Below are positions 30,695 through 64,000 of a DNA stretch of 64,000 nucleotides, piece by piece. The translations under genes were made by a program, and so were the position numbers. The stretch comes from a bacterium (GTDB lineage Bacteria > SZUA-182 > DTGQ01 > JAFGSM01): positions 5,820 through 69,819 of the forward strand of contig JBLIRN010000014.1 in assembly GCA_049472315.1 (NCBI GenBank), in the 5' to 3' direction. The notes under the pieces are model-generated. The model saw nothing but the letters and a program-made list of their open reading frames with translations, was not told where the DNA came from and did not search any database. The stretch's first letter is position 1; every line of letters begins with the position of its first letter.

Positions 30695-30699
30695 CATTT

Positions 30700-41741: not shown

Positions 41742-41894
41742 TATATTGAGTAGTGTTCACGGCATCCGGCGCGCATGACGTTGTCTGTTGTGCGCCCCCA
41801 TCAATCGATTCCGCACCTTTTTGACCGATGCGCAGGTGAACCCATCTTCGTTTATACCCCTTGAGCATTGCTGGTCTGTTCGGAAAGGAAGAAT

Positions 41895-43770: not shown

Positions 43771-43771
43771 T

Positions 43772-44266: not shown

Positions 44267-44281
44267 TCCCGTGATGAGAGA

Positions 44282-48850: not shown

Positions 48851-49077
48851 ACATATTCCTCCAGCAGTCTTTATTTTTCGCACTTCATTCAAAAATCTCC
48901 TGATTTCCAAAATATTTCTCCTTTCCCTCCCTCCCCCTCCTTCCGCGGCAATTCTCATTTTAACCTTGTATTGCCCCGATCCTTTGATGACATTCAAAAT
49001 AAGAATTGCTCATATCCCTCCGATCAATTTTTTTATTTTGCCGATAAAAGAATAAATAACTCCATGGAGGCATATTT

Positions 49078-49578
49078 ATGATGAAGACACGCTGGATTGG
49101 GGGCATGACCCTCATCGAGGTAGCGGTCGTGGTGTCGATTATCGTCGTTGCCACTACCCTCGCAGTTCCTTCCATAGTGGGCATAATGCCCCGATTCCTT
49201 CTCAATTCACAGGTCTCCGCCCTGCACAACGACTTCCAGAGGGCACGCTTCAAGTCCATCAGCCTCAACACCCAGTACCGGATCAGCCTCGCAATAGACA
49301 TTTCGCCAAACCCGGATACCTATAAAGGGGAGTACTACGACCTCGCCACCGCCAAGTGGGTGGCGGATACGGAGATGAAATCCAGGCAGATCCGCGAGGG
49401 GGTGGATATCGCCTATATAGGAAGCGCGGGTAAAACCAAGGACATCTTCCTCATCCGGTTCAATCCCGACGGCACCGCCGATGACGAAGAGATATTCCTG
49501 ACAAACTCAAAGGGGCTCCAGCGGCGGATCGAGATAATCGACACCACCGGCATTATAAGGGTCCATAACTCATGGTAG
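49078..49578 (+). CDS. fimT: Type IV pilus minor pilin, FimT/GspH family (set 2)
   Basis: GG|MTLIEVAVVVSIIVVATTLAVP prepilin-like N-terminus and GspH-like region VSALHNDFQRARFKSISLN. Confidence 0.75.
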   Translation: MMKTRWIGGMTLIEVAVVVSIIVVATTLAVPSIVGIMPRFLLNSQVSALHNDFQRARFKSISLNTQYRISLAIDISPNPDTYKGEYYDLATAKWVADTEMKSRQIREGVDIAYIGSAGKTKDIFLIRFNPDGTADDEEIFLTNSKGLQRRIEIIDTTGIIRVHNSW

Positions 49579-49588
49579 GTGAACGCAC

Positions 49589-50029
49589 ATGACGATGACA
49601 CGACATGCAGGGTTTACCATCATCGAGGTGATGGTGGCGCTGGTATTCCTGGCCGTAGGCCTGCTGGGAATCGCAGGGCTTCACTATGCCACCATAGCGG
49701 GGAACAAGTCGGCAAACTATGCCACCCTCGCGGTAAACCTTGCCGAGGACAAGCTCGAGGAGCTGAAGCGACTCACCTATAACCATGGGGACCTTGCAGA
49801 TACGGATAACAACAAGAATGACATAAGCACCGAGATCAAGCAGAATCCCTCTTTGTTCACCAATCCGGACCATGCCAACGATTCACCTGACTCGAGGCTG
49901 ACCCGCGTGTGGAACGTGGCAAACGACACCCCCGCAGCCCGCTTGAAAACGGTGACGGTCATAGTCGGATGGGAGGATACCCGGTGGCACTACATCGCCC
50001 TTACAACCATCATACGAAATGAGGGATAA
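49589..50029 (+). CDS. pilV: Type IV pilus minor pilin PilV-like (set 2)
   Basis: HAG|FTIIEVMVALVFLAVGLLGIAGL. About 145 aa. Confidence 0.8.
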   Translation: MTMTRHAGFTIIEVMVALVFLAVGLLGIAGLHYATIAGNKSANYATLAVNLAEDKLEELKRLTYNHGDLADTDNNKNDISTEIKQNPSLFTNPDHANDSPDSRLTRVWNVANDTPAARLKTVTVIVGWEDTRWHYIALTTIIRNEG

Positions 50030-50032
50030 GCC

Positions 50033-50992
50033 ATGGACCACCAGTGCACCAGGAAAACGGACCCCCGCTGGTCCCAGGGATTCAGCCTCATCGAGCTGAT
50101 CATCGCCCTGGTGATGTCCCTTGTGGTGATGAGCGGGATTTATGCCTACTGCAACAGCCATCACAAGTCCCATAACATCCAGACCAGGGTCAACGAGATG
50201 AACCAGGGCATTCGGTTCGCCATGAACCGGATGGTATCCGAGGTCAGGATGGCGGGATTCAAGACGGGCTCGGGTACTCAAGTGTTCCACTCCGTTGCAT
50301 CCACCGCGTGGTGGACCTTCGGTCTTGCTGCAACGATACCCTACAACACCCCTCTTGTGGCCGACAACATGGTCATCAGGCAGGGGGCGTGCGACCCGCG
50401 GGATGACATGCTCATCTTCATGTACGCGGATTCGGACCCCGAGATACAGCTTGCAAATGCGGCAGGCAAGGGCGATGTGTGGATCAAGCTGAATCTCGAC
50501 ACGGACGAGGTTGCCGAACGCTTCCACAAGGGAGACATCATATACATCGGGTTCGGCACGGTGCGCTTCCCGGAGGATGACCTTGAATACGCCAAGGTGA
50601 TCTCCATCTCATACAGTTGGCTGTATATCGACACCAATCCCTTCATAGGAGGGGTTCAGGGACTGGCTAACCTCAATGACTACCGGGTCGGCACGGAGGT
50701 GGGAATCGTCAACGTGGTGACCTATGCGGTGTTCAACGACAAGAACGATTCCACATTCTCGAAACACGAGAAGGGGCACCCGGTGCTCGCCAGGAAGTGC
50801 AATATGGACGACTTTGAGGCCTTGGTGGAGGACATCGAGTCGCTCGAGGTTACGGCGCAGGGAAACGACGTCCAGATAAGCATCATCGCCAGGACCTCCA
50901 AGGAGGAGCCTGAGTTCACCAATCCCCATTTCGGGGACCACTTCCGGAGAAGGACCATGACCTCCATGGTCAAGGTCAGAAACAGAGAGTGA
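50033..50992 (+). CDS. pilW: Type IV pilus minor pilin PilW-like (set 2)
   Basis: SQG|FSLIELIIALVMSLVVMSGIYAY. 319 aa. Confidence 0.75.
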   Translation: MDHQCTRKTDPRWSQGFSLIELIIALVMSLVVMSGIYAYCNSHHKSHNIQTRVNEMNQGIRFAMNRMVSEVRMAGFKTGSGTQVFHSVASTAWWTFGLAATIPYNTPLVADNMVIRQGACDPRDDMLIFMYADSDPEIQLANAAGKGDVWIKLNLDTDEVAERFHKGDIIYIGFGTVRFPEDDLEYAKVISISYSWLYIDTNPFIGGVQGLANLNDYRVGTEVGIVNVVTYAVFNDKNDSTFSKHEKGHPVLARKCNMDDFEALVEDIESLEVTAQGNDVQISIIARTSKEEPEFTNPHFGDHFRRRTMTSMVKVRNRE

Positions 50993-51001
50993 GGTGCCAC
51001 C

Positions 51002-51577
51002 ATGAAAAGCCCGGCACGGATATACGCCATGATCCTTGGCAACCAGCAGGGGGTCGCCATTCTTGCGGCGCTCGTCGTCATGGTGATGCTGACGGTTCTG
51101 GGACTGGCGGGCATCTACCTTTCCACCACCGACATCATGATCTCGCACAACTACCGCGTCATCAAACAGAAATTCTATGCGGCCGAGGCCGCACTTCAGC
51201 AGGGGATCAACATCCTCCGGGGCACCTCCATTGAGGACTGGAACGACTATATCAGCACCGCGACCGCAAAAGACCCTGAGGTGGCGCTGCCGGGGATGTC
51301 CGACGTGGAGTTCCAGGGGATGCGTTACACCATAAAGGTAAAGAACAATCTCGACGATTTCGTATTCGGTGACGCGAACTATACGGTCGACGAATGGTAC
51401 AGCACCAATCTTGACAACATCATGGTGGTCGTTGCCGAGGGCATGGGAGACAGCGGTCAGCCCAAAGTCCTGGAGGCTGCGGTGGAATGGGAACCCGGAA
51501 GCGTGCACTCGTACGGAGGAAAGGACATCACCTCCGACAACGTCAACGTGACCGTGGCCAATATCGACTGGAACTGA
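51002..51577 (+). CDS. pilX: PilX-like minor pilin (PilX_N domain) (set 2)
   Basis: QQGVAILAALVVMVMLTVLGLAGIYLSTTDIMISHNYRVIKQKFYAAEAAL matches the PilX_N pattern. Confidence 0.8.
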   Translation: MKSPARIYAMILGNQQGVAILAALVVMVMLTVLGLAGIYLSTTDIMISHNYRVIKQKFYAAEAALQQGINILRGTSIEDWNDYISTATAKDPEVALPGMSDVEFQGMRYTIKVKNNLDDFVFGDANYTVDEWYSTNLDNIMVVVAEGMGDSGQPKVLEAAVEWEPGSVHSYGGKDITSDNVNVTVANIDWN

Positions 51578-51657
51578 GGGACGGCTCACGTCATACAGCG
51601 TGACATGTACGGGAAGAAAAACAATTTAACTGGAACATCCATAATAGGAGGTGCACC

Positions 51658-54600
51658 ATGATTTGCAACAAGAACTGGCAATGGATGATCGTTGTCTGCC
51701 TTGCGGGTGTCCTTCTCTTTGCATCCGTTTCACATGCAAAGATGAAGCCCCTGAAGGCCCTCGAGGACATGGTGGTCCCGCCGAACATCATGATAATCAT
51801 GGACACCTCAGGGAGTATGCAGTGGAACATCGACGGGAAGACCCTGACATGGCCCGACGGCGATGGCCATGTGTACGGGTCCCACGAGGACAGCCGCCTT
51901 TTCATCGCCAAGACGGTCGTCAGGGACGTGCTCAACGACTGCCGGGGACTGGCGAACTTCGGGCTCATGTCCTTCCTGCAGACCCACTACCAGAGGACCA
52001 GCAGCGTAAAGGGGTACTTCCCCTACTACAAGATAGGGTCGGCAGTACCGGTGTACGAGAAGAAATTTTTCACCGTTAATGAACTCTCGTTAGAAAAATA
52101 CGTGGTGAACGGCAAGCCCAAACAGCCCGCAAACAGCGGAAAGCCCAACTACCGGCCGGTTGATGTGTTCGAGTTCAACGGGGTGGAGTACCTCCTTATG
52201 GGAGGTACCAGTGCCAAGTACCAGAGAAAGTCAGGCAAGAAACGGCACAATGCCTGGCATGCTTACTGCGGGTACCAGTGCGACTTCGCCGACCCCGTTA
52301 CCGGTAAGACGTATACCTGGACATACCAGGGAAGCAACTACAAGTACGCGAAGAAACTGCAAGACGATGATTCGATCTACTATTTCACCAAATTCTACGG
52401 CAAGGAGTTCATAGCCACCGGCGACGAGGACTTAAACAACGGGTGCAGCGGCACCGTGGACCCGAACGACGTGTTCCTCTACTACCATGGCATGGACGGC
52501 AAGAACTTCAAGTACTCCAGCGTTTCCGGCTCGTGGAGCGATTCGGACCACCCGGTGGGCGCACGCGACACCTATGCGGTGTATAGGGGCGGGATCGTCC
52601 TTGTTCCCATATCCCTCTCCGCGGACAAGGAAGTCCAGTGCCAAAGGGTCGACGATATCCTCCAGTGGATGGAATCGCAGGATGCAGGGGGGCTCATCTC
52701 CATCGGTGCCACACCTACCGGCTCAACCCTGCGCAATGACACGGTGGTGTCAGGATACTATAACGACTACAAGGAATACTTCCTTGGCGAGATCGACAAG
52801 AAGGATACCCTGTCGTGCCGCAGAAACGCCGTCATCTTCGTGACCGACGGTGAGCCCAGCCCGACGGAGGAGGGGGGATACGCCAAAAACGCAGCGGAGG
52901 ACCTGTACAAGAACTATGGGGTCAAGGTCTTCATGGTCGGGTTCGGCGCCGATACCGATGGGAGCACCACCCTCAACGAGATCGCCATCAAGGGGGGCAC
53001 CGAACATGCCTACTATGCAACCTCCCAGGAGGAACTCGAGGAGGCACTTCTGAACATCATCTTCGAGGCAGCAGCAGGCGACTATGCCACCTCTTCGCCC
53101 ACCTCCGGTTCAGGGGGCTGCACACGCCTCATCGGGAACGTCGGTCTCCTGGGCACTGCGGAGTTCCCCTCCTGGAGAGGGCACCTGATGGCCTACGACC
53201 TGTCGAAGGACGAGACCTTGTGGGACGCAGGGGAATTGCTGAACGCCGACCACGTCCAATGGAACGAACGAAAGATCTATACATCAGACTCCGCGAACAA
53301 CCTGGTCCCCTTCTTCGACGGCTCCGGTGCGCCCAATACCGTGAGACTCCTGTCGCTCGGCCTGGGACTGAGCGCCGGCGAGACCCTTGAGATCATCGAA
53401 TTCATCGCCGGAAAGACCCGCTCCTGGCGGCTCTTCGACATTACCAACTGTACCCCTGTCGCGGTGGGCCCTCCCTATACACCGCTGTATCCGGTGGCCA
53501 TGCCCGGGCACGACATATACGAGAAGACTTACGAGCGTCGAAGGACCCTCGTCTACTCCGGGTCGAACGACGGCATGCTCCATGCTTTCGACATGCTCAC
53601 CGGCAGGGAGGCGTTCGCCTATGTGCCGCCCGACCTCTTCCCCAAGGTGAAGGAGCTCTACCTCAACCGCGGGCAGCCGGTCGATCCCCTGGAGCATATC
53701 TTCGGGGTGGCCGCCTCGCCCAAGGCATACGATGTCCTGCTCGAAGATGATGACTACGATACATGGAGGACCGTGTTGATCTGTGGCGAGGGCCCCGGGG
53801 GGTATAACTACTTCGCCTTGGATGTCACGCATCCATCCCCGGGGGACATAGGCTACGATGCGGATAAGCCGTTCAAGGTGCTCTGGCACACGCGGGACCA
53901 ATACCTGAGATCCAAATACGAGCCGATCGTCGGCGAATCCTGGTCCACCCCCGCCATCGGCCAGATCTCCTTCAAGATATTGGATTACAAAAAGAGCATA
54001 TACGCCGCCTTTATGGGCTCCGGATACGACGACCCAACAAGCCCGGATGCAGAGGGCCTGACCTTCATGGCCATCCGATTCGGTGAAGATCTTTATGACA
54101 ATGGAGGGCTCCTCTTCTCCCAGAACCTGGGCGCACCGTATACCATCGTGCACCATGGGTTGATGGCCGACGCCGTGTGCTATGAGGATAAAGGGCTCAT
54201 CACCGACGCCTACATGGTGGATACCGCAGGGAGGGTATGGCACATGGACACGGTGGGAAAGCCGTCGGACTGGAAAATGACCCAAATCTATGACGCATCC
54301 GTATGGCATCCCTTCTTCTACTCGCCGGCGGTACTCAAGATCGGCGAGGGGGATACGGCGTGCACCAACATGGTGATTGCATCCGGCACCTATGATGACC
54401 CGGGGATCAACTACGAGGGGTGCTCGTTCGTGTCCGGCCTCTTTCTCCTTCACCTGAACAGCGGCGACCAGGTCGTGAACTCGCTGTCCATCCCCTTTAC
54501 CGACATCGTCATGGATGCCAATACGGGCGAGTACTTCCCGGCTCGTGCCAGGGTGAACGCCTCACCCGTTATCATCCAAAACGAGAGCACCTCGCAATAC

Positions 54601-54915
54601 GAGACCATCTTCCTGGTGTACGTGCCACCCGTGGATGTCGGGTGCCAGCACGGGAAGAGCTACCTTGTGGTATACAAGCTGGGCGCATTCGGGGAATGCG
54701 GGTTTGCAAACAGTTCTCAGTTTCTCACCATCTACGCGGGTGAGGGGAAGGTCACCGGTGTGGACATCGTGGGAGACCCCAGCGCAGTGCTGGTCGGGGT
54801 GTCAGGCCTTGGGAGCGGAGAGCGAAGCAGCCTGAAGGCCGTGCCCTCCACCCCCAGCTTTGTCTCAGGGACCGTGAAGGAGCTCTATTGGAAGGAATAC
54901 ATCAATCACTACTAA
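51658..54915 (+). CDS. pilY1: PilY1-like tip adhesin (1085 aa; vWA + beta-propeller)
   Basis: Signal peptide. An N-terminal vWA domain with MIDAS IMIIMDTSGSMQWN and AVIFVTDGEPS. C-terminal PilY1 domain YSGSNDGMLHAF. Confidence 0.85.
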   Translation: MICNKNWQWMIVVCLAGVLLFASVSHAKMKPLKALEDMVVPPNIMIIMDTSGSMQWNIDGKTLTWPDGDGHVYGSHEDSRLFIAKTVVRDVLNDCRGLANFGLMSFLQTHYQRTSSVKGYFPYYKIGSAVPVYEKKFFTVNELSLEKYVVNGKPKQPANSGKPNYRPVDVFEFNGVEYLLMGGTSAKYQRKSGKKRHNAWHAYCGYQCDFADPVTGKTYTWTYQGSNYKYAKKLQDDDSIYYFTKFYGKEFIATGDEDLNNGCSGTVDPNDVFLYYHGMDGKNFKYSSVSGSWSDSDHPVGARDTYAVYRGGIVLVPISLSADKEVQCQRVDDILQWMESQDAGGLISIGATPTGSTLRNDTVVSGYYNDYKEYFLGEIDKKDTLSCRRNAVIFVTDGEPSPTEEGGYAKNAAEDLYKNYGVKVFMVGFGADTDGSTTLNEIAIKGGTEHAYYATSQEELEEALLNIIFEAAAGDYATSSPTSGSGGCTRLIGNVGLLGTAEFPSWRGHLMAYDLSKDETLWDAGELLNADHVQWNERKIYTSDSANNLVPFFDGSGAPNTVRLLSLGLGLSAGETLEIIEFIAGKTRSWRLFDITNCTPVAVGPPYTPLYPVAMPGHDIYEKTYERRRTLVYSGSNDGMLHAFDMLTGREAFAYVPPDLFPKVKELYLNRGQPVDPLEHIFGVAASPKAYDVLLEDDDYDTWRTVLICGEGPGGYNYFALDVTHPSPGDIGYDADKPFKVLWHTRDQYLRSKYEPIVGESWSTPAIGQISFKILDYKKSIYAAFMGSGYDDPTSPDAEGLTFMAIRFGEDLYDNGGLLFSQNLGAPYTIVHHGLMADAVCYEDKGLITDAYMVDTAGRVWHMDTVGKPSDWKMTQIYDASVWHPFFYSPAVLKIGEGDTACTNMVIASGTYDDPGINYEGCSFVSGLFLLHLNSGDQVVNSLSIPFTDIVMDANTGEYFPARARVNASPVIIQNESTSQYETIFLVYVPPVDVGCQHGKSYLVVYKLGAFGECGFANSSQFLTIYAGEGKVTGVDIVGDPSAVLVGVSGLGSGERSSLKAVPSTPSFVSGTVKELYWKEYINHY

Positions 54916-54927
54916 GAAAGGTCAATC

Positions 54928-56043
54928 ATGAGCGATTCATTCAACCTGGATTCAAGGGGGCATCAAAGGCGATTTATTGCACGAACAAAGGCAAAAAAGG
55001 GGACGGCCGGCCCCCGGGGACGGGGCGCCGGCTCCCCCAGCGGGCACGGACTCCTGTGGAACCTCTCCCAGGGATTCAAGCTCAGGTTCAAGATCGTGTG
55101 GATCATGCTCGCTGCGGGAGTGATTGCGGCAGGATATTTCCTGTTCCTGGGGGTATCCGAAAGGCCGCAGCAGACGCTTTCCGCAGACATGACCATCACC
55201 AGGAGTGTTCCTGCAATCAGTCGGGTGTACATCACCCCATCGGAGCCTACCGGAAGGGACTCCCTGCTCGCCAATGTGGAGATAAGGGGGAAGCAGGATA
55301 AGATCCTCTTTCGCTACCAATGGGAGCGCAACGACTTTGTGATCGAAGGGGCAACCGGAAGAACATTGAACAGCGCCCTGTTCGAACGTGGGGATATCAT
55401 TGCGGTGACAGCAGTGCCGGTCATGATGGCGGTGGAGGGGAAGCAGGTGAGGAGTGCGGAGGTGAGGATCGCCAATACCCCGCCGGCCATGCTGTCCGCC
55501 TCGATCAAACCGAAGGTCCTCTTTACCGATACGGAGGTGTACGTGGATGCCAAGGCCGAGGATAAGGACCACGATGAGATCGAGCTCATCTACCAATGGG
55601 TCAATAACGGTGTGGAGATCCATGGACAGAATGAATGCCGCCTCGACCCGGTCCACTATGCAAAGGGGGACCGCATACAGGTCAAGGTAACCCCCTTTGA
55701 CGGATTCGACCATGGCACGACACTCCTGTCAGCGGTGGTGATCGTGAACAACTCGTCCCCCCGGATCGTGTCCTATCCGCCGACCACCCTCGCGGAGCCG
55801 GGAACCTTTGTGTATGAGGTGCGCGCGGAAGACATAGATGAGGACCCCATCTTCTACTCCCTTTCCCCAAGCAGTCCTCCCGGGGTGACCATCGACAGGG
55901 AGAGCGGGCTCCTGGTGTGGAGAATCCCGCATGACGTGGAACAGGGATTGAACCGGATAGAGGTCCTCGCTCAGGACAGCGAAGGGGGTGAAACATCGCA
56001 GTGGTTTACCCTGAACCTGCAGTTCGAGGTGAGTCAGCGCTGA
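54928..56043 (+). CDS. Membrane-anchored protein with two internal beta-repeat units and a C-terminal He_PIG/cadherin-like putative Ig domain
   Basis: Basic cytoplasmic N-terminus, then one TM helix (IVWIMLAAGVIAAGYFLFLGV). Internal repeat (ILFRYQWERNDFVIEGATG...GDIIAVTAVP versus IELIYQWVNNGVEIHGQNE...GDRIQVKVTP). C-terminal motif YSLSPSSPPGVTIDRESGLLVWRIP. Confidence 0.6.
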   Translation: MSDSFNLDSRGHQRRFIARTKAKKGTAGPRGRGAGSPSGHGLLWNLSQGFKLRFKIVWIMLAAGVIAAGYFLFLGVSERPQQTLSADMTITRSVPAISRVYITPSEPTGRDSLLANVEIRGKQDKILFRYQWERNDFVIEGATGRTLNSALFERGDIIAVTAVPVMMAVEGKQVRSAEVRIANTPPAMLSASIKPKVLFTDTEVYVDAKAEDKDHDEIELIYQWVNNGVEIHGQNECRLDPVHYAKGDRIQVKVTPFDGFDHGTTLLSAVVIVNNSSPRIVSYPPTTLAEPGTFVYEVRAEDIDEDPIFYSLSPSSPPGVTIDRESGLLVWRIPHDVEQGLNRIEVLAQDSEGGETSQWFTLNLQFEVSQR

Positions 56044-56186
56044 GGCGTGGGGCACTTGACAGGGGTAGGGATTTGATATATTTTTCAATGGAATTCTTTT
56101 ATTCTCATCATCGCCCGGGTGCATTGCAGCACACCCGGGCATAATCACAGCAGGCACAAGGCCGGAAGGAAGGCAGGTGGCGTAGA

Positions 56187-57251
56187 GTGAATCCGTTCGA
56201 GAAAAAGGATCTGGTAGGGTTGGATATCGGGGCGAGCGCCATCAAGGTGGTGGAGTTGAAGAGGCTTAAGAAGGGAAAGAACTACGAATTGGTGAACCTT
56301 GCCCTCACCAAGCTACCCCCCGAGGTGATCAAGGAGGACGAGATCACGAAGCCGGAGATCGTTGCGGAGAACATCAAAAAGACCTTCCGCGACAACAAGA
56401 TAGAGAACAAGAACGTCGCCGTGTCCATTTCAGGAAGGTCGGTGATCGTCAAAAGGATCAAGTTGCCGAAGATGTCGGAAGAGGAACTGGAGGAATCCAT
56501 ACAGTGGGAGGCCGAACAGTTCATCCCCTTCGACATCAACGATGTGAGCCTGGATTTCCAGATCATGTCCGGCCTCGATGCAGCCAGCGAAAACATGGAT
56601 GTCCTGCTGGTAGCAGTCAAAAAGGATCGTATTACCGATATAGTAAATATAATAGAGCTTTCAGAACTGGTTCCAGCGGTGGTTGACATCGATTCGTTCG
56701 CCCTGGAGAACCAGTACGAGATCAATTATACGCCGGAACCGGAGAAGTACGAGGCCCTGGTGGACATTGGCGCAGAAACGATGTGCATCAATGTGATCAA
56801 GGATGGAGCCTCTGTTTTTACCAGGGATGCCTCCATCGGCATCAACCAGTTCCACAGAACGATACAGAGGGAAATGTTTCTGGATTTTGCACAGTCAGAG
56901 GCGCTCATGAATGGGGTCGAGGTCGAAGGGAGAACCAAGGACGAGATCATCCCCTACCGGGATGGATTTTACGAGGAGCTCCTTGCGGAGGTCCAGCGCT
57001 CCTTTGATTACTTCCGTGCCACGGCCGAGGAGGGAATGGTTTCCGGCATATACCTGAGCGGGGGCGGATCGTTGCTGGAAAACTTCACCGATTTCCTGAC
57101 CGAGCGCCTGGGGATCTCCGTGCAGCAGATCGACCCGTTCAGGAACGTCCAGATCAATCTCAAGAAGTTTGACCGCGAGTACATCACCTCCATCGCGCCT
57201 CTCATGGCGGTGGGGATCGGTCTCGCGTTGCGGAGGATCGGGGATCGATGA
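56187..57251 (+). CDS. pilM: Type IV pilus assembly protein PilM
   Basis: Actin-like ATPase-fold PilM (LVGLDIGASAIKVVEL; C-terminal IAPLMAVGIGLALR). GTG start. Confidence 0.9.
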   Translation: MNPFEKKDLVGLDIGASAIKVVELKRLKKGKNYELVNLALTKLPPEVIKEDEITKPEIVAENIKKTFRDNKIENKNVAVSISGRSVIVKRIKLPKMSEEELEESIQWEAEQFIPFDINDVSLDFQIMSGLDAASENMDVLLVAVKKDRITDIVNIIELSELVPAVVDIDSFALENQYEINYTPEPEKYEALVDIGAETMCINVIKDGASVFTRDASIGINQFHRTIQREMFLDFAQSEALMNGVEVEGRTKDEIIPYRDGFYEELLAEVQRSFDYFRATAEEGMVSGIYLSGGGSLLENFTDFLTERLGISVQQIDPFRNVQINLKKFDREYITSIAPLMAVGIGLALRRIGDR

Positions 57252-57835
57252 TCAGAATCAACCTCCTTCCGAGAAAAGCAAAACCATTGGTCGCCCTGTG
57301 GAGGGACGGAACGGTCCTCGGCGCCGTGATCGTTCTCCTTTTTATCGTATGGATGGTGGTGCTGGTGAGGATGAACAGCAGGCTCAACGCCACCCGACGG
57401 GAATTGCAGCGGGTGAAGAAACAGATCGAGGATTCCAAGCTCGACCTTCAGAAGGTGGAGAAGCTCAAGGAACGGAAGGCGATGCTGGAGAACAAGATCA
57501 ACATCATCCATTCCCTGAGGGAAAAACAGGCAGGACCGGTGCATATGCTCGACGACCTGAGTATTGCCATGCCAGAGCAGGTTTGGCTGGAGACCCTCAA
57601 CAACACGGGCACCACCCTCCGCATCGATGGGTATTCCCCCTCATACAATGCGGTATCGGAATTCATGCGCATGCTTGCCCAATCACCCTATTACGACAGG
57701 ATAGAGCTCGATAACATCCAGCAGTCCATCATCAAGGGGAAGAAATTCCAGAGATTCAAGATCTCCTGCCAGGTGCTTTTTACTCCCAAAATTCAGGAGG
57801 AGGCGCCGGAGGGGGCAAAGGAGCAAACGACATAA
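57248..57835 (+). CDS. pilN: Type IV pilus assembly protein PilN
   Basis: MIRINLLPRK N-terminus, a single TM helix and a coiled-coil region. Overlaps the pilM stop. Confidence 0.9.
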   Translation: MIRINLLPRKAKPLVALWRDGTVLGAVIVLLFIVWMVVLVRMNSRLNATRRELQRVKKQIEDSKLDLQKVEKLKERKAMLENKINIIHSLREKQAGPVHMLDDLSIAMPEQVWLETLNNTGTTLRIDGYSPSYNAVSEFMRMLAQSPYYDRIELDNIQQSIIKGKKFQRFKISCQVLFTPKIQEEAPEGAKEQTT

Positions 57836-58459
57836 ATGGATGCCAAAGAACTCAACAAGGTGCTGGCCACCACGCCCGTATCCAAGAAGGTCTCCGTCCT
57901 GATGCTGGTGGTCCTTGTTTTTTGTCTGATGGGCTATTACTACGTCTATAAGCCTAAAAATAACAAGATCCTTGTACTGCAGCCGGAAATACAAAAGCTC
58001 AAAAAGACCCTCCGGGAAAACCTGGAAATTACCAAGGGGATCAAGGACATCGAGGAGGAGCTAAAAAAGATCGAGGGCAGGCTCTCCCAGGCCCAGGCCC
58101 AGTTGCCGACCGACAAGGAGATACCGAATCTTCTCACCAAGATCTCCGACCTGGGAAGTGTGGTCGGGCTCGAATTCCTTCTGTTTCAGCCAAAACCGGA
58201 GGTTCCCAAAGATTTTTACAACGAAGTGCCGATAGATATCCGTATAAAGGGGAATTTTCATATGGTGGCACAGTTTTTCGATATGATCGCGCATCTTCCC
58301 CGAATCGTCAATATAAGCAACATAACCATGCGGAGTCCCACGATGGTCGGATCGCACATCGTTCTGGAGACAAGCTGCCTTGCAACGACCTTCAGGTTTA
58401 CGGCAAAGGCGACTCAACCGGCCAACCAACCAGGCAAAAAGGGGGGGAGGAAGAGATAA
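57836..58459 (+). CDS. pilO: Type IV pilus assembly protein PilO
   Basis: 207 aa with an N-terminal TM helix, coiled coil and a PilO C-terminal domain. Positioned between pilN and pilP. Confidence 0.85.
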   Translation: MDAKELNKVLATTPVSKKVSVLMLVVLVFCLMGYYYVYKPKNNKILVLQPEIQKLKKTLRENLEITKGIKDIEEELKKIEGRLSQAQAQLPTDKEIPNLLTKISDLGSVVGLEFLLFQPKPEVPKDFYNEVPIDIRIKGNFHMVAQFFDMIAHLPRIVNISNITMRSPTMVGSHIVLETSCLATTFRFTAKATQPANQPGKKGGRKR

Positions 58460-59181
58460 TGCCGGCTCAAACCGGGAAGGGCATGTATCGATGCATGCTC
58501 CTCCTTGTTATTGCGATATGCCTCCTTCTCCCTGCTTCCCGGGGTTTTTCCCAATCCCCTGCCACGGAATCGGCACCACAGCATGAGGAAGGAGTCATCG
58601 AGGGGCGGGAGGTCCAGGACGACCCAATGACAGAGATGAATAACGACAAAATCGCCGAGGGCGGCGAGGATATTCCCGCCGAACCGTATGAGTTAACAGG
58701 AGGCCAGGAAGCGGAGGGATTTCCCGGGGAAGGGGAAGACGCTGCAATGGAGGACCCGAACGGTCTCGCAATCGCAGACCCGAACAGCCCTGCCACCGCG
58801 GAATCCTCCATGGAACTCAAGGAGGATGATTACCATTACAATCCCTTTGGCCGCAGGGATCCCTTCTATTCGAAGCTTTGGGAAGATAAAAAGGAATTAC
58901 AGCCGAATAAGAAATTGATAGGTGTTCAACGCTATGACCTCAGTGAATTGAAACTGGTGGGCATAGTCTGGGGGGCACTTGGCAGGAAAGGGGTTGTAGA
59001 GACCCCCGAGGGCAAATCGTACCTCGTCAAGGACGGCACCCCCATAGGGGATGATAACGGCATGGTAAAGGCGATTACCAATCAGGAGGTGGTCATCCAG
59101 GAATTCGAAACGGATTACCTGGGGAACCGCATTGAAAAGATCACCGTCATGAAGATAGAACATAAGGAACAGGACGAATAA
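58459..59181 (+). CDS. pilP: Type IV pilus assembly lipoprotein PilP
   Basis: Signal peptide, an acidic low-complexity linker and a C-terminal PilP beta-domain (LKLVGIVWGALGRKGVVETPEGKSYLVKDGTPIGD). Confidence 0.8.
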   Translation: MPAQTGKGMYRCMLLLVIAICLLLPASRGFSQSPATESAPQHEEGVIEGREVQDDPMTEMNNDKIAEGGEDIPAEPYELTGGQEAEGFPGEGEDAAMEDPNGLAIADPNSPATAESSMELKEDDYHYNPFGRRDPFYSKLWEDKKELQPNKKLIGVQRYDLSELKLVGIVWGALGRKGVVETPEGKSYLVKDGTPIGDDNGMVKAITNQEVVIQEFETDYLGNRIEKITVMKIEHKEQDE

Positions 59182-59224
59182 ATGCCGAAGAACACGATGG
59201 AGAAAAACCGAGGAGGTATCATAC

Positions 59225-61288
59225 ATGGCGCAGAATGAATCGCATAATCTATTACGGATCGTATGCATGATCACCAGTATCTCGTTCTGCCTCCTTGCGT
59301 GCGCGCCTGCGCGCGTTCCCGTGGATACCACCTCTATGCCCTCTTCCGAAAGGATACTCATCACGGATATCGGGAGGGAAATGGACGAGCAGACAACCAC
59401 CCTCATCATTTATTCAACCCAAACGGTCAATTATACCTCATTTGCCCAGCAGGACCCTCCCTCCATCGTGATCGAGATGCCCGACACCTATGTTCATTCC
59501 AACCTGAGGCCCCTGGAGTTCACCGAGGGCCCGGTCACAAAGGTCATCCCCGAACAGGTCGTATCGGACGATTCGGTCAAGGCCCGCCTGACCCTGGAGA
59601 TGCGCAGGGGATTTCCTTATGAAATTCAAAGGGAGACGAACCAGTTGCGGATCGGCATCAAATCATACACTACCTTGACCCCCCCGGTGCAAACGGCCAA
59701 GGCAGCCGCAAAGGAAGAGGGCATTACTGAAAAAGAATCCGCAAAAGACACAACGGTCCGTAAGCTGGCGATGCCCGAGCGTACAATCCTTCGCACCATT
59801 CCCGATGAAAAGGGTGCCGCGCCGGGGGAACCGATAGAATACGTACCGACCGCTGAACCTGAAAAGAAAGAGGCAACGCCCGCGGCGATTCCGCCTTCAC
59901 GGGAAAAGGCCCTGCCATCCAGAACAGCAGCGGATACCGGCGAGCGGGATCTCCTCCTCGGAAAACGGGTGTATAGCGGCAAGCCCATATCCCTCGATTT
60001 CCAGAATGCGGACATCCGCTCCGTGCTGCGCATCATCGCCGATGTGAGCGGCCATAACCTGGTGATCGATCCCGAGGTCAAGGGAAAGGTGGATATCACC
60101 CTGGTAAAACCCGTCCCCTGGGACCAGGCCCTTGATGTGATCCTCAAGACAAACAAGCTTTCGATGAAGATGGAGGGTAATATCATCCGGGTAGGCCTTC
60201 CCCAGACCTTTACCGCAGAGAAGGAGGCGGAGCTGAGTGCGATTCAGGCCGCGCGCAAGGCCAAGGAGGAGGCAAACAAGGTGATCCCCCTGAGCACGAA
60301 GATCGTTTCCATCAACTACGCATCCGCCGAAGTGCTCATGAGCAAGCTTCAACCCATGCTCAGCAAGAGCGAAGGGCTTGCCGAGCCCCCTTCCATCATG
60401 GTGGATGAGCGCACGAACACCCTCATCATCAAGGACCTGCCTGAGGTCATCGATGAAATCCAGGGTGTCATAGCGACACTCGACCGCCCGACACCCCAGG
60501 TCATGATCGAGGCCAGGATCGTGGAGACCAACAAGAACTTTGCAAAGGACCTGGGAATCCAATGGGGAGGCACCTATTCAAAACAAACCAGCTACCGGTT
60601 CGCCAACAGCATCGAGGTGAGGGGCACCACGGGCACAGATACCGGCCTGGGCGGTCTTGGGCCAACCGGCCGTTCTGATCAATACATGGTGAATCTCCCC
60701 ATCTCCTCGGCTGCATTCGGGGCCATCGGGATCAACCTGGGGCACGTGAACGGGGCCACCGCCCTGGATATGCAGCTTAAGGCAATGGAGACGAGCGGCA
60801 AGGGACGCATCGTGTCGAACCCGCGAATCGCCACCCTGGATAACGAGCAGGCAACCATCAAGAGCGGCCACTCCATCCCCTATCAGACGACGGACTCAGA
60901 GGGGAATCCCAGTACGCAGTTTGTGGATGCTGCCATCAACCTGACGGTCACCCCTCAGATCACCCCCGACGACAATATCACCATGCAGATCCAGGCCGAC
61001 AAGAGCGAGCCTGACTGGAGCCGGACCGTTGCCGGGGCGCCCTCCATCATCACCCGTACCGCCACCACGAAGCTCATCGTGAGCGACGGGGATACCGCGG
61101 TGATCGGCGGGCTGGCCCAGGCGAACGAGCAGAGCAATCAACGAAAGGTCCCGCTGTTCGGGGATCTTCCGTTGATCGGCGTCTTGTTCAGGACCGAGGA
61201 CAAGACCGACGGCTTCGACGAGCTCCTCATCTTCATCACCCCGCGCATCATACGGGAAACACCCCTGAGCCAGGCGATGATCGAGTAG
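59225..61288 (+). CDS. pilQ: Type IV pilus secretin PilQ (with N-terminal AMIN domain)
   Basis: Lipoprotein-type signal, AMIN-like N-terminus, N0/N1 domains and a C-terminal secretin domain (GGTYSKQT...VSNPRIATLDNEQATIKSGHSIPY...LLIFITPRII). Confidence 0.9.
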   Translation: MAQNESHNLLRIVCMITSISFCLLACAPARVPVDTTSMPSSERILITDIGREMDEQTTTLIIYSTQTVNYTSFAQQDPPSIVIEMPDTYVHSNLRPLEFTEGPVTKVIPEQVVSDDSVKARLTLEMRRGFPYEIQRETNQLRIGIKSYTTLTPPVQTAKAAAKEEGITEKESAKDTTVRKLAMPERTILRTIPDEKGAAPGEPIEYVPTAEPEKKEATPAAIPPSREKALPSRTAADTGERDLLLGKRVYSGKPISLDFQNADIRSVLRIIADVSGHNLVIDPEVKGKVDITLVKPVPWDQALDVILKTNKLSMKMEGNIIRVGLPQTFTAEKEAELSAIQAARKAKEEANKVIPLSTKIVSINYASAEVLMSKLQPMLSKSEGLAEPPSIMVDERTNTLIIKDLPEVIDEIQGVIATLDRPTPQVMIEARIVETNKNFAKDLGIQWGGTYSKQTSYRFANSIEVRGTTGTDTGLGGLGPTGRSDQYMVNLPISSAAFGAIGINLGHVNGATALDMQLKAMETSGKGRIVSNPRIATLDNEQATIKSGHSIPYQTTDSEGNPSTQFVDAAINLTVTPQITPDDNITMQIQADKSEPDWSRTVAGAPSIITRTATTKLIVSDGDTAVIGGLAQANEQSNQRKVPLFGDLPLIGVLFRTEDKTDGFDELLIFITPRIIRETPLSQAMIE

Positions 61289-61589
61289 TCCATAACTGCC
61301 TTTCTGCCCGTTTCCCGACCGTACGTTCCCTTCCTCCATATTCCACTCAACAAGTCCAATTTTTTATTTGAAATTAAAGCCCTTTTGTCAAAACTTGCTG
61401 CAAAGTTTTTTTAAAAAAAGGTCGATAAATGTAAAAAAGGCAGGGAGGTATGCCCTGTTTACGATATGGTGTGTGCGGTGAGGTTAACAGAAGATTAAAA
61501 GGATGAAAAAGCAATATGTTAAAGACGATTAGTTTATATTTCACACGACAGGAGGACATGAAGAAAACAACACACGTGGGGGATCAACC

Positions 61590-64000
61590 ATGAATACCGT
61601 AAAAGGGATTTGTTCATTAGGAGGGCTTTTTAACAGACAGAAATCACTCGTGTGGATAATGTGTATTCTTATCCCTTGCTTCCTTTTGAGCGCCGGTCTC
61701 ACCGGCTGCTCGAAGGTGGAAGTGGAGCCTGATTCCGGCACATCCGGCGGCGGCACCACTACCACTACCCAGCCTGCCGCAATCACGCTCTCCATTAGTG
61801 ATCCGAACATTGTTATCGGCAGCAGTTTTCCCATGATCACCGCCCTTGTTTCGGATATCAACGGGGATCCGGTCGGCTCCGGATTTATGATCAATTTTTC
61901 CGTGTTTCCCATCACAGCAGCCACGTTGAGCTCATCCTCCAATACGACGTCCCTCACCGGCGAGGCATCGGTGTTCCTCAATCCACAGGAACCCGGAGGC
62001 GCGGTGGTTACCGCCATGTATTCGGGCGGCGTAACGGAATCGCTCCCCATAACCATTGTCGGCGATCCCAATGCCGCTGCAGACCCCAATTCCACTCCAA
62101 CCACCCCCTCTTCCGGCGCAACCGGCGTCATGAATTCCATTCAGATTGCAACAGGCTCCGAACAAATCGTGGCGGATGGGGTTAGTATTGCGGCCATATC
62201 CGCGACCGTTCTGGACACGGCAGGGGTGTTCATGCCTGACGCCACCACCTTCGTTACCTTTACCACCACCGCCGGTGATATTGATCCGGATATTGCAGGG
62301 GTGCAAAGCTCATATACCACGAACCCGACAAACGGCGTAGCAAGGACTACGCTGAGGAGCTCCACCAACAAGGGGATCGCGACCATCATCGCCTCCTGCG
62401 ACGGGTTCAATGACTTTGACACGATCGAGTTTATCGCCGGGCAGACGGCAACACTTCTCGTCAGCGCAAACCCCGATACGCTCATAGCGGACAGCAATAA
62501 TGTAGTAGGAGAAAGCTCAATCATGATTGCTGCCTACGATGCCTTCAACAATCCGGTGGAGAATGAAACAGAGCTTACCCTGAGCGCCAATTACGGGTCG
62601 CTGTCGACCTTTCTTGTCTTCACATCCGACGGGGAGGCGGGGGTCACCTACACGGCGCCCGGCACATCCCCTCCGGGAGGCACCGCCACCGTCACCGTGG
62701 AGGCTCCCAATGAACTTACAAACAGCGTGATCATTTATTTGAGCGCCGTCTCGGGTGATCCCAACGCCCCGACCTACCCGATCGGGTCCATAACCATCAG
62801 CTCGGGATCCCAAAAAATCGTGGCGGACGGAACGAGCTCGCTTACCGTGAGCGCAACGGTAAAGGATACATTGGGGGTAAATATCCCGAACGGAACCCCG
62901 GTCACGTTCACCACCACCGCAGGGGACCTCGATCCCAATACCGCATTGGTGCAGGATACGGTCACCCTGACAACCACCAGCGGCATTGCCCGGGCCACCC
63001 TGCGAAGCTCCACCCGGACCGGAACGGTGACCATCACCGCGGAGACCGGGGGATACAATGCAAGCACCACGGTCAAATTCATCCCCGGACCGGATGCCTC
63101 GGTCATAATGGATGCAAGCCCTGCAGACCTGATGGCGGACGGTGAGACCACCAGCACGATCACGGCGACCGTGCTCGACCTGTTCAACAATCCCGTTCCC
63201 GATATAACACTTACCTTCGATGCCATGGATGGCACCCTGGAAAAAAATATCGGGACCACCGATACTGAGGGACGGTGTACGAATACCTACACCTCCCCAG
63301 GGTATGTGCCTGCAGGAGGGGTCGATACCGTTACCGCAGAGACAACGAACAACATATCAGGAAGCGCCCTCATCAACCTGAGCGGCGCCCAGGTCGCCAG
63401 CATCACGTTGACCGCCGAGCCCTCCAGCCTTCCGGCGGACGGAACGAGCAAGTCCACGATTACCGCCTCGGTCACCATCGTGGGCGGGGGCACCACGCCG
63501 GATGACACCCCCGTTGCATTCTCCATCGTATCGGGCGGCGGATCCTTCCAGGTGACCGGCACCACCACCACCACGAGCTATACGGCCGGCGGCGAAGCCC
63601 AGGCCAGGCTGATCAGTGATCCAAATGTGGGCACGGCAACCATCCAGGCGACCAGCGGGGGCATCACCGAAGAAATCCAGATAACCTATACGCCGGGAAG
63701 CGTTACCCTGACCATTACCCCGAACTCCCTCCTGGGAACCGGGGACGAAACCGCCAATGTCATCGCCACCCTCACGGACGCCACCGGCTCGCCGGCAGCG
63801 GACGGGGAAGACGTGGTATTCTCCCTCAGCGACGGCACCCTGGGAAGCCTTGTGGACCTCAGCGGGGTGAGCATCACCGATCCCAACGGGGTTGCGACCG
63901 CCGCCACCTCAGGGGGGCAGGGCAAGGTGAATGTGGTCTTCGAGGCCTCCAATAAGGACGGGACCATCACCATCACCGCCACATGGAGCCCCGGCGGGAT
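61590..64000 (+). CDS. Large surface lipoprotein with tandem bacterial Ig-like (Big_1/invasin-type) domains (3' end beyond window)
   Basis: Translation checked by hand from ATG 61590. It is absent from the ORF track because no stop occurs before the window end. Lipobox LSAGLTGCS, a poly-Thr linker, then at least 8 repeats of about 90-100 aa with the Big_1-like pattern (ADG.S...ISATVLD..GNPV..GT.VTFTTT.G.L). Confidence 0.8.
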   Translation, partial: MNTVKGICSLGGLFNRQKSLVWIMCILIPCFLLSAGLTGCSKVEVEPDSGTSGGGTTTTTQPAAITLSISDPNIVIGSSFPMITALVSDINGDPVGSGFMINFSVFPITAATLSSSSNTTSLTGEASVFLNPQEPGGAVVTAMYSGGVTESLPITIVGDPNAAADPNSTPTTPSSGATGVMNSIQIATGSEQIVADGVSIAAISATVLDTAGVFMPDATTFVTFTTTAGDIDPDIAGVQSSYTTNPTNGVARTTLRSSTNKGIATIIASCDGFNDFDTIEFIAGQTATLLVSANPDTLIADSNNVVGESSIMIAAYDAFNNPVENETELTLSANYGSLSTFLVFTSDGEAGVTYTAPGTSPPGGTATVTVEAPNELTNSVIIYLSAVSGDPNAPTYPIGSITISSGSQKIVADGTSSLTVSATVKDTLGVNIPNGTPVTFTTTAGDLDPNTALVQDTVTLTTTSGIARATLRSSTRTGTVTITAETGGYNASTTVKFIPGPDASVIMDASPADLMADGETTSTITATVLDLFNNPVPDITLTFDAMDGTLEKNIGTTDTEGRCTNTYTSPGYVPAGGVDTVTAETTNNISGSALINLSGAQVASITLTAEPSSLPADGTSKSTITASVTIVGGGTTPDDTPVAFSIVSGGGSFQVTGTTTTTSYTAGGEAQARLISDPNVGTATIQATSGGITEEIQITYTPGSVTLTITPNSLLGTGDETANVIATLTDATGSPAADGEDVVFSLSDGTLGSLVDLSGVSITDPNGVATAATSGGQGKVNVVFEASNKDGTITITATWSPGG

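What the first reader, a model, noticed from the sequence alone, without database searches (positions are those of the whole stretch)
54928..56043. Membrane-anchored Ig-repeat/He_PIG protein inserted between pilY1 and pilM
Canonical pil loci do not have a gene at this position. The product has a basic cytoplasmic tail, one TM helix, two internally repeated beta-rich units (shared Y-Q-W-x-N...G-D-x-I-x-V-x-V-x-P pattern) and a C-terminal dystroglycan/cadherin-like 'putative Ig' motif (YSLSPSSPPGVTIDRESGLLVWRIP). It could be a periplasmic or inner-membrane accessory that couples the tip/priming complex to the PilMNOPQ machine, or a co-secreted adhesin.
Basis: partly seen in the sequence, partly recalled or inferred. 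Interest (0 to 1): 0.5.

Follow-up and report, generated by a model that had tools for sequence, protein, structure and literature searches.

The report
Membrane-tethered Ig protein partnered with PilY1
A real, conserved gene encoding a membrane-anchored string of three immunoglobulin-like domains always sits at the end of the operon for the type IV pilus tip protein PilY1, in a group of uncultured bacteria, which makes it a probable, undescribed helper of PilY1 and not a link to the PilM-Q machine.

Summary
ORF 54928-56043 (+) encodes a 371-aa protein with these parts:
- a basic cytoplasmic tail
- one TM helix
- two homologous Ig units, which are phage-Hoc/I-set-like
- a C-terminal He_PIG/cadherin-like domain, scoring above Pfam's cutoff

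It is under purifying selection (dN/dS about 0.15).

The interpretation needs correcting. The conserved partner is pilY1, not pilM. In about 70 homologues, all from uncultured MAGs or metagenomes, the gene closes a minor-pilin/pilY1 operon.
- pilY1 is immediately upstream in 12 of 15 individually inspected loci, with gaps of -17 to +53 nt.
- pilY1 is immediately upstream in 28 of 32 scanned metagenome loci.
- The downstream gene varies: pilM, HTH then pilM, gcpE, another pilin set, or maf.
- One contig has two pilin/pilY1 sets, each followed by its own copy.
- A conserved sigma-70-like promoter separates the ORF from pilM.
- Most homologues are lipoproteins; the window clade uses a TM anchor instead.

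Best explanation, inferred and not shown: a periplasm-facing, membrane-tethered accessory that binds or stabilises its cognate PilY1 or priming complex. This is functionally comparable to, but unrelated to, Myxococcus TfcP.

The family is apparently undescribed. Its domains are ordinary. Interest is moderate.

The parts
54928..56043 (+). The gene: 371-aa bitopic protein with three Ig-like domains (deposited as MGA1843840.1, 'cadherin repeat domain-containing protein')
   Evidence: ORF list and translation. An identical protein, P0001, is in the database. dN/dS is 0.14-0.18.
54916..54921 (+). Shine-Dalgarno-like GAAAGG, directly after the pilY1 stop (TAA at 54913-54915) and 6 nt before the ATG
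   Evidence: Sequence read. The pilY1-to-ORF gap is 11-12 nt in all loci of the window clade where pilY1 is visible, apart from a 17-nt overlap in L009. No plus-strand terminator-like site lies here.
54928..55092 (+). Basic cytoplasmic tail, residues 1-55. Conserved motifs are RFIARTKAKKG and NLSQGFKLRFK.
   Evidence: 12 K/R against 2 D/E. The motifs are conserved down to 43-45% identical homologues. dN/dS is 0.19-0.25. The region is disordered in both AF2 models.
55093..55149 (+). Single TM helix (signal-anchor), residues 56-74
   Evidence: Hydropathy maximum of 2.37. AF2 predicts a helix at 56-74 or 56-72. It is not a prepilin signal: G-F-K-L-R-F-K lacks Glu5, and the N_methyl model gives no hit at E<=10.
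55150..55212 (+). Flexible linker, residues 75-95
   Evidence: pLDDT is below 50. It corresponds to the 21-47-residue Pro/Gly/Ser-rich tether in lipoprotein homologues.
55213..55479 (+). Ig-like domain 1 (Hoc/I-set-type), residues 96-184, core W132
   Evidence: AF2 beta-sandwich with block-mean pLDDT of about 81-97. It is homologous to domain 2. The family profile matches T4 Hoc at E = 2.4e-11. No Pfam model covers it.
55480..55755 (+). Ig-like domain 2 (Hoc/I-set-type), residues 185-276, core W224, acidic cluster AEDKDHD (D212, D214)
   Evidence: D212, D214 and D258 are at least 90% conserved across 52 family members.
55756..56022 (+). He_PIG/cadherin-like domain 3, residues 277-365. It has core W331, the cluster AEDIDED (D302, D304, D306) and D350, preceded by the linker VNNSSP.
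   Evidence: PF05345 scores 29.5 and 33.4 bits against a gathering score of 24. 'RAEDIDEDPIFYSL' aligns with the cadherin 'ATDADDD..Y' DxD motif, and 'VNNSSPRI' aligns with cadherin-23 'VNDNAPRF'.
51658..54915 (+). Cognate pilY1 of set 2 (1085 aa): Sec signal, VWA and PilY1 propeller. This is the conserved upstream partner.
   Evidence: Pfam hits. PilY1 is immediately upstream of family genes in 12 of 15 inspected loci and 28 of 32 scanned loci.
49078..51577 (+). Four minor pilins of set 2 (166 aa, 146 aa, 319 aa PilW-like, 191 aa PilX), in the same operon
   Evidence: N_methyl and PilX_N hits plus G|(F/M)(T/S)(L/I)(I/V)E signals.
56053..56099 (+). Conserved promoter-like block for pilM. TTGACA is at 56056-56061, followed by an AT-rich -10 region. 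It marks the end of the pilY1/ORF unit.
   Evidence: It is the best sigma-70-like site in 48700-61600. The block is almost invariant in window, L002, L003, L004, L009 and L011, although the ORF proteins are only 43-45% identical. No credible Rfam family matches here: two eukaryotic miRNA/snoRNA models score far below their gathering thresholds.
56187..61288 (+). pilMNOPQ. This is the downstream neighbour in this lineage only and is not a conserved partner.
   Evidence: Pfam and NCBIfam hits. pilM is absent downstream of the family gene in L005, L016, L018, L020, L021 and the metagenome-scan loci.

Best explanation
The gene is the last cistron of a minor-pilin/pilY1 operon. It encodes a dedicated accessory protein of that PilY1 set.

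Proposed mechanism:
1. The protein is inserted in the inner membrane by an uncleaved signal-anchor. In most relatives it is lipid-anchored instead.
2. A flexible tether projects a roughly 12-13 nm rod of three Ig-like domains into the periplasm. The rod is possibly stiffened by Ca2+ at cadherin-like DxDxD / Asn-x-x-Pro junctions.
3. There it binds the Sec-exported, otherwise soluble PilY1, or the PilY1/minor-pilin priming complex. It holds, stabilises or positions this complex until the complex is built into the T4a pilus machine.
4. Because the protein is not a pilin, it stays behind when the pilus extends.

Shown: the gene is real, the domain architecture, the topology signals, and tight 1:1 gene linkage with pilY1 across members only 23-30% identical.
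Inferred: periplasmic location, physical binding to PilY1, a stabilising or docking role, and Ca2+ binding.
For: - The gene is real and constrained.
- The architecture is tail, TM helix, tether and three confident beta-sandwich domains.
- The anchors are interchangeable. At least 32 of 52 members have a lipobox plus Cys, while the window clade and P0326-8 have a basic tail plus TM helix. The common denominator is therefore a membrane-tethered ectodomain on the periplasmic side.
- Synteny: pilY1 is directly upstream, with gaps of -17 to +53 nt, in window, L001, L002, L004, L005, L008, L009, L011, L016, L018, L019 and L020. The same holds in 28 of 32 metagenome loci.
- The downstream gene varies.
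- L020 has two tandem pilin/pilY1 sets, and each is followed by its own family member. This fits a module that duplicates together with pilY1.
- The gene has its own RBS, and no terminator-like site separates it from pilY1. A conserved promoter block follows it.
- There is a precedent. In Myxococcus, cluster-specific extra genes occur in minor-pilin/pilY1 operons, and one of them, periplasmic TfcP, stabilises PilY1.1 (PMC8833165, PMC13190605).
Against: - There is no direct evidence of a PilY1 interaction. No PilY1-family gene fusion was found.
- In L017 and L021 the gene follows minor pilins, not pilY1. The partner could therefore be the pilin set instead of PilY1 itself.
- The set-1 PilY1 in the same window has no such partner, so PilY1 does not generally need one.
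- Lipoprotein members have Gly, not Asp, at position +2. Under E. coli rules they would go to the outer membrane, so the anchoring membrane may differ between clades.
- Many loci come from related lineages and are not independent.
- The Ca2+ sites rest on motifs only, and the cadherin matches are weak (E = 0.007 or worse).
Confidence: 0.55

Rival explanations
1. One reading: a coupling protein that bridges the priming or tip complex to the PilMNOP alignment subcomplex. For example, its conserved cytoplasmic tail could contact PilM while its ectodomain contacts PilY1 or PilO/PilP.
For: - In the window clade the gene lies directly before pilM.
- It has a conserved basic tail with the motifs RFIARTK and GFKLRFK under purifying selection.
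- No canonical terminator lies between the ORF and pilM, so read-through is possible.
Against: - Most family members have no cytoplasmic tail at all, because they are lipoproteins.
- Most are not next to pilM.
- A conserved promoter block separates the ORF from pilM.
- The tail shows no resemblance to the PilM-binding INLLP motif that the window's own PilN carries.
- P0327, which is TM-anchored, is followed by maf and not by pilM.
Confidence: 0.12
2. An adhesin, or cell-surface or released Ig-repeat protein, that is co-expressed with the tip adhesin PilY1 to widen substrate binding. Lipoprotein versions would be surface-exposed.
For: - Hoc-type Ig and cadherin-like domains are typical of adhesive surface proteins.
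- The same D1-D2 module occurs 10-24 times in giant, presumably surface, proteins.
- Lipoprotein members lack an Asp at +2.
Against: - The window protein has an uncleaved TM signal-anchor and a 55-residue cytoplasmic tail, which fixes it in the inner membrane.
- It has no prepilin signal and no secretion-system-specific signal.
- Three domains on a short tether cannot span the cell envelope.
- A function shared by the TM-anchored and lipid-anchored forms is most simply periplasmic.
Confidence: 0.15
3. A transmembrane signalling or sensing element. The ectodomain would report the state of PilY1 or the minor pilins, or the Ca2+ level, to the cytoplasm through the conserved tail. This would be analogous in logic to PilY1/minor-pilin signalling via FimS-AlgR in Pseudomonas.
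For: - The tail motifs are conserved in two separate TM-anchored clades. 'RFIARTK...GFKLRFK' in the window clade corresponds to 'RVVIARP...AKLRLTP' in P0328.
- There is purifying selection on the tail.
Against: - The tail is short and disordered, with no recognisable signalling domain.
- Most of the family lacks it, so signalling could at best be a clade-specific addition.
Confidence: 0.1
4. A gene unrelated to pilus function that is merely carried along at the operon's 3' end.
For: The function is untested. The domains are generic. Many of the loci come from related lineages.
Against: The linkage persists at 23-30% protein identity with changing downstream genes. The gene duplicates together with the pilin/pilY1 set in L020. 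The junctions are tight or overlapping.
Confidence: 0.05

Closest known systems
TfcP of Myxococcus xanthus (accessory protein of minor-pilin/PilY1 cluster_1; PMC8833165)
   Same: It is an extra non-pilin gene inside a minor-pilin/pilY1 operon. It is specific to one of several PilY1 sets, sits adjacent to pilY1, and is periplasmic. It shows that PilY1 sets can recruit a dedicated stabilising factor.
   Different: TfcP is a soluble non-canonical cytochrome c located upstream of pilY1.1. The window protein has no CxxCH motif and only one Cys. It is membrane-tethered, built of Ig-like domains, and located downstream of pilY1. There is no homology. A Ca2+-related role here is speculative, and the cognate PilY1 shows no EF-hand-like motif by a crude regex.
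MXAN_1370 (M. xanthus cluster_3) and PilY2 (P. aeruginosa): other uncharacterised extras in minor-pilin/pilY1 operons
   Same: They occupy a similar position in the operon and have unknown roles. MXAN_1370 is translationally coupled to its neighbours (PMC13190605).
   Different: MXAN_1370 carries a T2SS-T3SS_pil_N domain. PilY2 is, from my own knowledge, a small protein. Neither has this Ig/He_PIG architecture.
Phage T4/RB49 Hoc Ig-like domains (PDB 5vf3, 3shs)
   Different: Hoc decorates phage capsids. The homology is at the level of the domain only and says nothing about pilus function.
Cadherin / He_PIG (dystroglycan-type cadherin-like) domains
   Same: Domain 3 passes the He_PIG threshold. 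Its DxDxD motif and the Asn-x-x-Pro linker align with the cadherin Ca2+-binding DxD and DxNDNxP motifs. About 20 of the top 50 Foldseek hits are cadherins.
   Different: The Pfam Cadherin score is below threshold (17.6-21 against 28.8). The linker is NNSSP, not DxNDN. Ca2+ binding was not tested.
Archaeal FlaF/FlaG (my own knowledge)
   Same: These are N-terminally membrane-anchored beta-sandwich proteins that act as a non-filament accessory of a type IV filament machine.
   Different: They are archaeal, bind the S-layer, and are not homologous. This is only an analogy of design.

Membership tests
He_PIG (PF05345) domain-containing protein | Score at or above Pfam's gathering threshold of 24 bits | tested here: met
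   29.5 bits for the whole protein and 33.4 bits for the domain alone, covering residues 281-363.
Cadherin (PF00028) | Score at or above the gathering threshold of 28.8 bits | tested here: not met
   17.6 and 21.0 bits.
Cadherin (PF00028) | Inter-domain Ca2+-binding motifs (DxD, DxNDNxP, acidic residues of the preceding domain) | tested here: inconclusive
   The DxDxD motif is present and near-invariant (D212/D214; D302/D304/D306). It aligns to the cadherin DAD motif. The linker is N-(T/S)-x-P, without the Asp residues.
Type IV (pseudo)pilin | Class III signal: G | F/M-T/S-L-I/V-E with Glu5, followed by a hydrophobic alpha1-N; N_methyl model | tested here: not met
   The sequence is G-F-K-L-R-F-K, with three basic residues and no Glu5. 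N_methyl gives no hit at E<=10. All six true pilins in the window have the motif with Glu5.
Bacterial lipoprotein | Lipobox followed by Cys at the end of a signal peptide | tested here: not met
   The window protein has no N-terminal Cys; its only Cys is C237. By contrast, at least 32 of 52 homologues do have a lipobox.
TfcP-type PilY1 accessory cytochrome c | Heme-binding CxxCH motif and a cytochrome c fold | tested here: not met
   No CxxCH motif. The fold is all-beta Ig-like.
PilY1-operon accessory protein (operational class, not a homology family) | A non-pilin gene conserved inside minor-pilin/pilY1 operons, adjacent to pilY1 | tested here: met
   12 of 15 inspected loci and 28 of 32 scanned loci have pilY1 immediately upstream. 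The remaining inspected loci are still inside minor-pilin sets.
PilY1-operon accessory protein (operational class, not a homology family) | Physical or functional dependence on PilY1 | not testable with these tools
   This needs complex prediction or experiments. The gene-fusion search was negative.
PilMNOP alignment-subcomplex components | A PilN, PilO or PilP Pfam domain, or a PilM-binding N-terminal INLLP motif | tested here: not met
   No such Pfam hit. The tail lacks INLLP, which the window's PilN has.
Hoc/I-set-type Ig domain (domains 1-2) | Significant sequence similarity to solved Hoc or I-set Ig domains | tested here: met
   The family profile matches T4 Hoc at E = 2.4e-11 and CEA at 4.8e-6. 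No Pfam family reaches E<=10 for these domains.

The most novel reading that the evidence does not exclude
The family is an obligate, stoichiometric extra component of the type IVa pilus machine in these lineages. It would be a membrane-tethered, Ca2+-rigidified 'dock' that holds its cognate PilY1 at a defined height in the periplasm. It would control when the priming or tip complex is loaded into, or released from, the machine. In the TM-anchored clade it would also report this state to the cytoplasm through the conserved tail.
Probability: 0.2. Interest if true: 0.6.

Novelty: new variant of a known kind. Interest (0 to 1): 0.4.

Why it matters
How PilY1 is handled is poorly understood outside Myxococcus, where TfcP is the only characterised accessory. 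PilY1 is a large, Sec-exported, non-pilin protein that must be kept stable, captured at the membrane and mounted on the minor pilins.

A second, unrelated family that is genetically locked to pilY1, and that duplicates together with it, would show something more general. It would mean that different lineages have independently recruited dedicated PilY1 helpers. It would also provide a simple candidate, a tether plus three Ig domains, for studying PilY1 docking.

The practical value is limited for now. All members come from uncultured bacteria, and the domains themselves are common.

Tried and rejected
1. Prepilin reading of the conserved 'G-F-(K/T)-L' before the helix. Rejected: there is no Glu5, the following residues are basic, and N_methyl gives no hit.
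2. Exhaustive profile search with the full-length alignment. It was swamped by giant repeat proteins (54,004 hits). It only showed that the D1-D2 module is widespread and has no Pfam model.
4. The first genome scan with the 8-sequence alignment failed because it had no conserved stretch. The repeat scan with 6 sequences found only two full-length GTDB hits, both labelled 'MAG: bacterium'.
5. Taxonomic placement via RecN. Named phyla are only 40-43% identical, so the lineage remains unclassified.
6. Riboswitch or sRNA in the ORF-pilM spacer. There are no credible Rfam matches, and the fold z-score is -0.97.
7. PilY1-family gene fusion (Rosetta stone). The apparent case in L045 is a frameshift near the end of pilY1. 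The family gene there keeps its own lipoprotein signal.
8. A TfcP-like calcium link via an EF-hand motif in PilY1. A crude regex finds none in the cognate set-2 PilY1 and gives inconsistent results across loci. This neither supports nor refutes the idea.
9. The small ~85-aa secreted protein that follows the gene in the lipoprotein clade. It is absent from the window.
10. Literature. No paper combines PilY1 with He_PIG or cadherin-like proteins.

Full report
OBSERVATION

The ORF at 54928-56043 (+) is present exactly as described. It starts 12 nt after the stop codon of a 1085-aa PilY1, which has a VWA domain and a PilY1 propeller. A GAAAGG ribosome-binding site lies in between. A 143-nt spacer follows the ORF, then pilM, pilN, pilO, pilP and pilQ, all with strong Pfam and NCBIfam matches.

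The product has these features:
- The tail (residues 1-55) has 12 Lys/Arg against 2 Asp/Glu.
- A single hydrophobic helix spans about residues 56-74.
- Two internal units are 31% identical over 61 residues, pairwise E = 1e-6.
- The C-terminal domain passes Pfam's He_PIG threshold, with 29.5 bits for the whole protein and 33.4 bits alone, against a cutoff of 24.

Orthologues at 86-88% identity give dN/dS of 0.14-0.18 overall and 0.19-0.25 for the tail. The whole frame, including the unusual N-terminus, is therefore translated and constrained.

ANATOMY

AlphaFold2 with a 52-sequence alignment gives a disordered tail, a TM helix, a disordered linker of about 20 residues, and three beta-sandwich domains. 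The domains cover about residues 96-184, 185-276 and 277-365, with pLDDT mostly above 90. The mean pLDDT is 82 and pTM is 0.62 (an earlier model is).

By sequence, the family profile matches the Ig domains of phage T4 Hoc (E = 2.4e-11) and CEA. The two 'YQW...GD' units are therefore Hoc/I-set-type Ig domains. No Pfam model covers them, even at E<=10. The same module occurs 10-24 times in giant proteins of 1,000-7,000 aa. Only domain 3 is He_PIG/cadherin-like.

Across 52 family members, the invariant or near-invariant residues are:
- one core Trp per domain (W132, W224, W331)
- acidic clusters A-x-D-x-D-x-D in domains 2 and 3 (D212/D214; D302/D304/D306)
- D258 and D350
- an Asn-x-x-Pro motif at each domain boundary

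Against cadherin structures, 'RAEDIDEDPIFYSL' aligns with the Ca2+-binding DxD motif, and 'VNNSSPRI' aligns with 'VNDNAPRF'. These matches are weak (E = 0.007 or worse), and the Cadherin Pfam score is below threshold. Ca2+-stiffened junctions are plausible but not shown.

NOT A PILIN

The conserved 'G-F-(K/T)-L' before the helix looks superficially like a prepilin cleavage site. However, it is followed by basic residues, lacks Glu5, and gets no N_methyl hit. All six true pilins in the window have G|(F/M)(T/S)(L/I)(I/V)E with Glu5.

FAMILY AND CONTEXT

A first search found only 8 homologues among 5.8 billion proteins. Searching with the two most divergent members raised this to about 70 proteins of 315-370 aa. 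All come from metagenomes or MAGs. The few named ones are Candidatus Deferrimicrobiaceae and 'Deltaproteobacteria'.

The window's own lineage is unclassified. Its RecN is only 40-43% identical to that of any named phylum. Only two GTDB species carry a full-length member of the window clade.

Most members (at least 32 of 52) have a lipoprotein signal, followed by a 21-47-residue Pro/Gly/Ser-rich tether. The window clade and a second small clade (P0326-8) have a basic tail and a TM anchor instead. The shared design is a membrane-tethered ectodomain of three Ig-like domains on the periplasmic side.

Synteny is the decisive result. I inspected 15 distinct loci individually.
- pilY1 lies immediately upstream on the same strand in 12 of them: window, L001, L002, L004, L005, L008, L009, L011, L016, L018, L019 and L020. 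The gaps range from -17 to +53 nt.
- In two loci (L017, L021) the gene closes a minor-pilin set directly.
- In one locus (L003) the contig starts too close to the gene to tell.

A metagenome scan added 32 loci with usable upstream sequence. In 28 of these a PilY1 C-terminus ends just upstream. The other four are partial or weak matches.

The downstream gene is not conserved:
- pilM in the window clade
- an HTH gene and then pilM in L019
- gcpE in L005
- a small secreted protein and then gcpE-proS in L016, L018 and most scan loci
- another pilin set, and a solute-binding protein, in L020
- maf in L021

L020 carries two tandem minor-pilin/pilY1 sets, and each is followed by its own family member. 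The window also has two sets (41868-48850 and 49078-54915), but only the second has a partner.

In the window clade the spacer before pilM contains the best sigma-70-like site of the region, TTGACA-17-TATTTT at 56056-56084. It lies in a ~45-nt block that is almost invariant in lineages whose ORF proteins are only 43-45% identical. No credible Rfam family matches there. The gene therefore belongs to the pilY1 transcription unit. pilMNOPQ has its own promoter. Read-through cannot be excluded, because no canonical terminator follows the ORF.

INTERPRETATION

The conserved partner, however, is pilY1 or the minor-pilin set, not pilM.

The best-supported mechanism is a membrane-tethered periplasmic accessory. 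It would bind, stabilise or position its cognate PilY1, or the priming complex, before that complex is incorporated into the machine. The protein would stay behind when the pilus extends, because it is not a pilin.

This parallels Myxococcus, in function only. There, cluster-specific extra genes occur in minor-pilin/pilY1 operons, and periplasmic TfcP stabilises PilY1.1 (PMC8833165, PMC13190605). The window protein is not a TfcP homologue: it has no CxxCH motif and an all-beta fold.

Binding to PilY1, the periplasmic location and Ca2+ binding are all inferences. A search for PilY1-family gene fusions was negative. A crude EF-hand search in the PilY1 proteins was uninformative.

RIVALS

- A PilM-coupling role is conceivable for the TM-anchored clade, because its tail is conserved. 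It cannot be the family's general function, because most members have no tail and no pilM neighbour.
- A surface adhesin role fits the domain types, but it does not fit an uncleaved inner-membrane anchor.
- A signalling role for the tail is possible as a clade-specific addition.
- Pure hitch-hiking is unlikely, given that linkage persists at 23-30% identity and that the gene is duplicated together with the pilin/pilY1 set.

NOVELTY AND SCORE

I found no description of this family. The deposited names are generic ('cadherin repeat domain-containing protein', 'Ig domain-containing protein'). No paper in the searchable library links PilY1 with He_PIG or cadherin-like proteins.

I rate it a new variant of a known kind, the known kind being accessory genes in minor-pilin/pilY1 operons. 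Interest is moderate (0.4). The linkage is clean and gives a testable hypothesis about how PilY1 is handled. Against that, the domains are commonplace, the function is only inferred, and no cultured host is known.

Noticed in passing
window 41868-48850: A first, separate minor-pilin set (GspH/FimU-like, PilW, PilV-like, PilX) is followed by a giant 1522-aa PilY1. This PilY1 has a BACON_2/Ig-like domain (residues 413-479), a weak VWA hit and the propeller. Unlike set 2, it has no Ig-family partner gene, and it carries two EF-hand-like motifs that the set-2 PilY1 lacks.
   Followed up: partly
window 56114-56139: A perfect 8-bp hairpin (CCCGGGTG...CACCCGGG) lies in the presumed pilM 5'UTR. The 86%-identity relative L002 keeps the stem through two compensatory changes. 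The element is absent from the lineages at 45% identity.
   Followed up: partly
L016 10018-10281; L018 10037-10294; most of L023-L066: In the lipoprotein clade, a conserved ~85-aa protein with a signal peptide directly follows the family gene, before gcpE-proS. It may be a further member of the module. The window has no counterpart.
   Followed up: partly
window 55213-55755 (domains 1-2); proteins P0009-P0156: The Hoc-like 'YxW..NG...GDxI.V.V' Ig module has no Pfam model. Even so, it occurs in 10-24 tandem copies in thousands of giant proteins of 1,000-7,000 aa (54,004 profile hits).
   Followed up: partly
L020 1-13591: One contig carries two tandem minor-pilin/PilY1 sets. One PilY1 has a Laminin_G_3 domain. 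Each set is followed by its own lipoprotein family member of 333 aa or 260 aa.
   Followed up: yes
L045 nt ~1353-1366: A frameshift near the 3' end of pilY1 creates an open frame that mimics a fusion of PilY1 with the family protein. It is probably an assembly error or a pseudogene.
   Followed up: yes
window 14548-15921 (-), 12448-14283 (-), 7310-12233 (+): The window also encodes a TPR protein resembling the pilotins PilW/Tgl and an S8 (mycosin-like) protease. Two large overlapping ORFs (754 and 894 aa) have no NCBIfam match.
   Followed up: no
window 41868-41960 and 54964-54990: The long leader of the set-1 FimU-like pilin contains 'AFIARG', and the ORF's cytoplasmic tail contains 'RFIARTK'. 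This is probably a chance resemblance.
   Followed up: no
window 30535-32403: The mechanical RecN ORF (622 aa, GTG start) is about 55 residues longer than the deposited 567-aa protein, so the true start is probably internal. RecN identity to any named phylum is only 40-43%, which indicates a deep, unclassified lineage.
   Followed up: partly
L002 16964-21116: In the 86%-identity relative, pilQ is followed by a protein of more than 1463 aa with Big_1/Invasin_D3 repeats. In the window, the region after pilQ (61541-63259, minus strand) holds ORFs with no Pfam hits.
   Followed up: no
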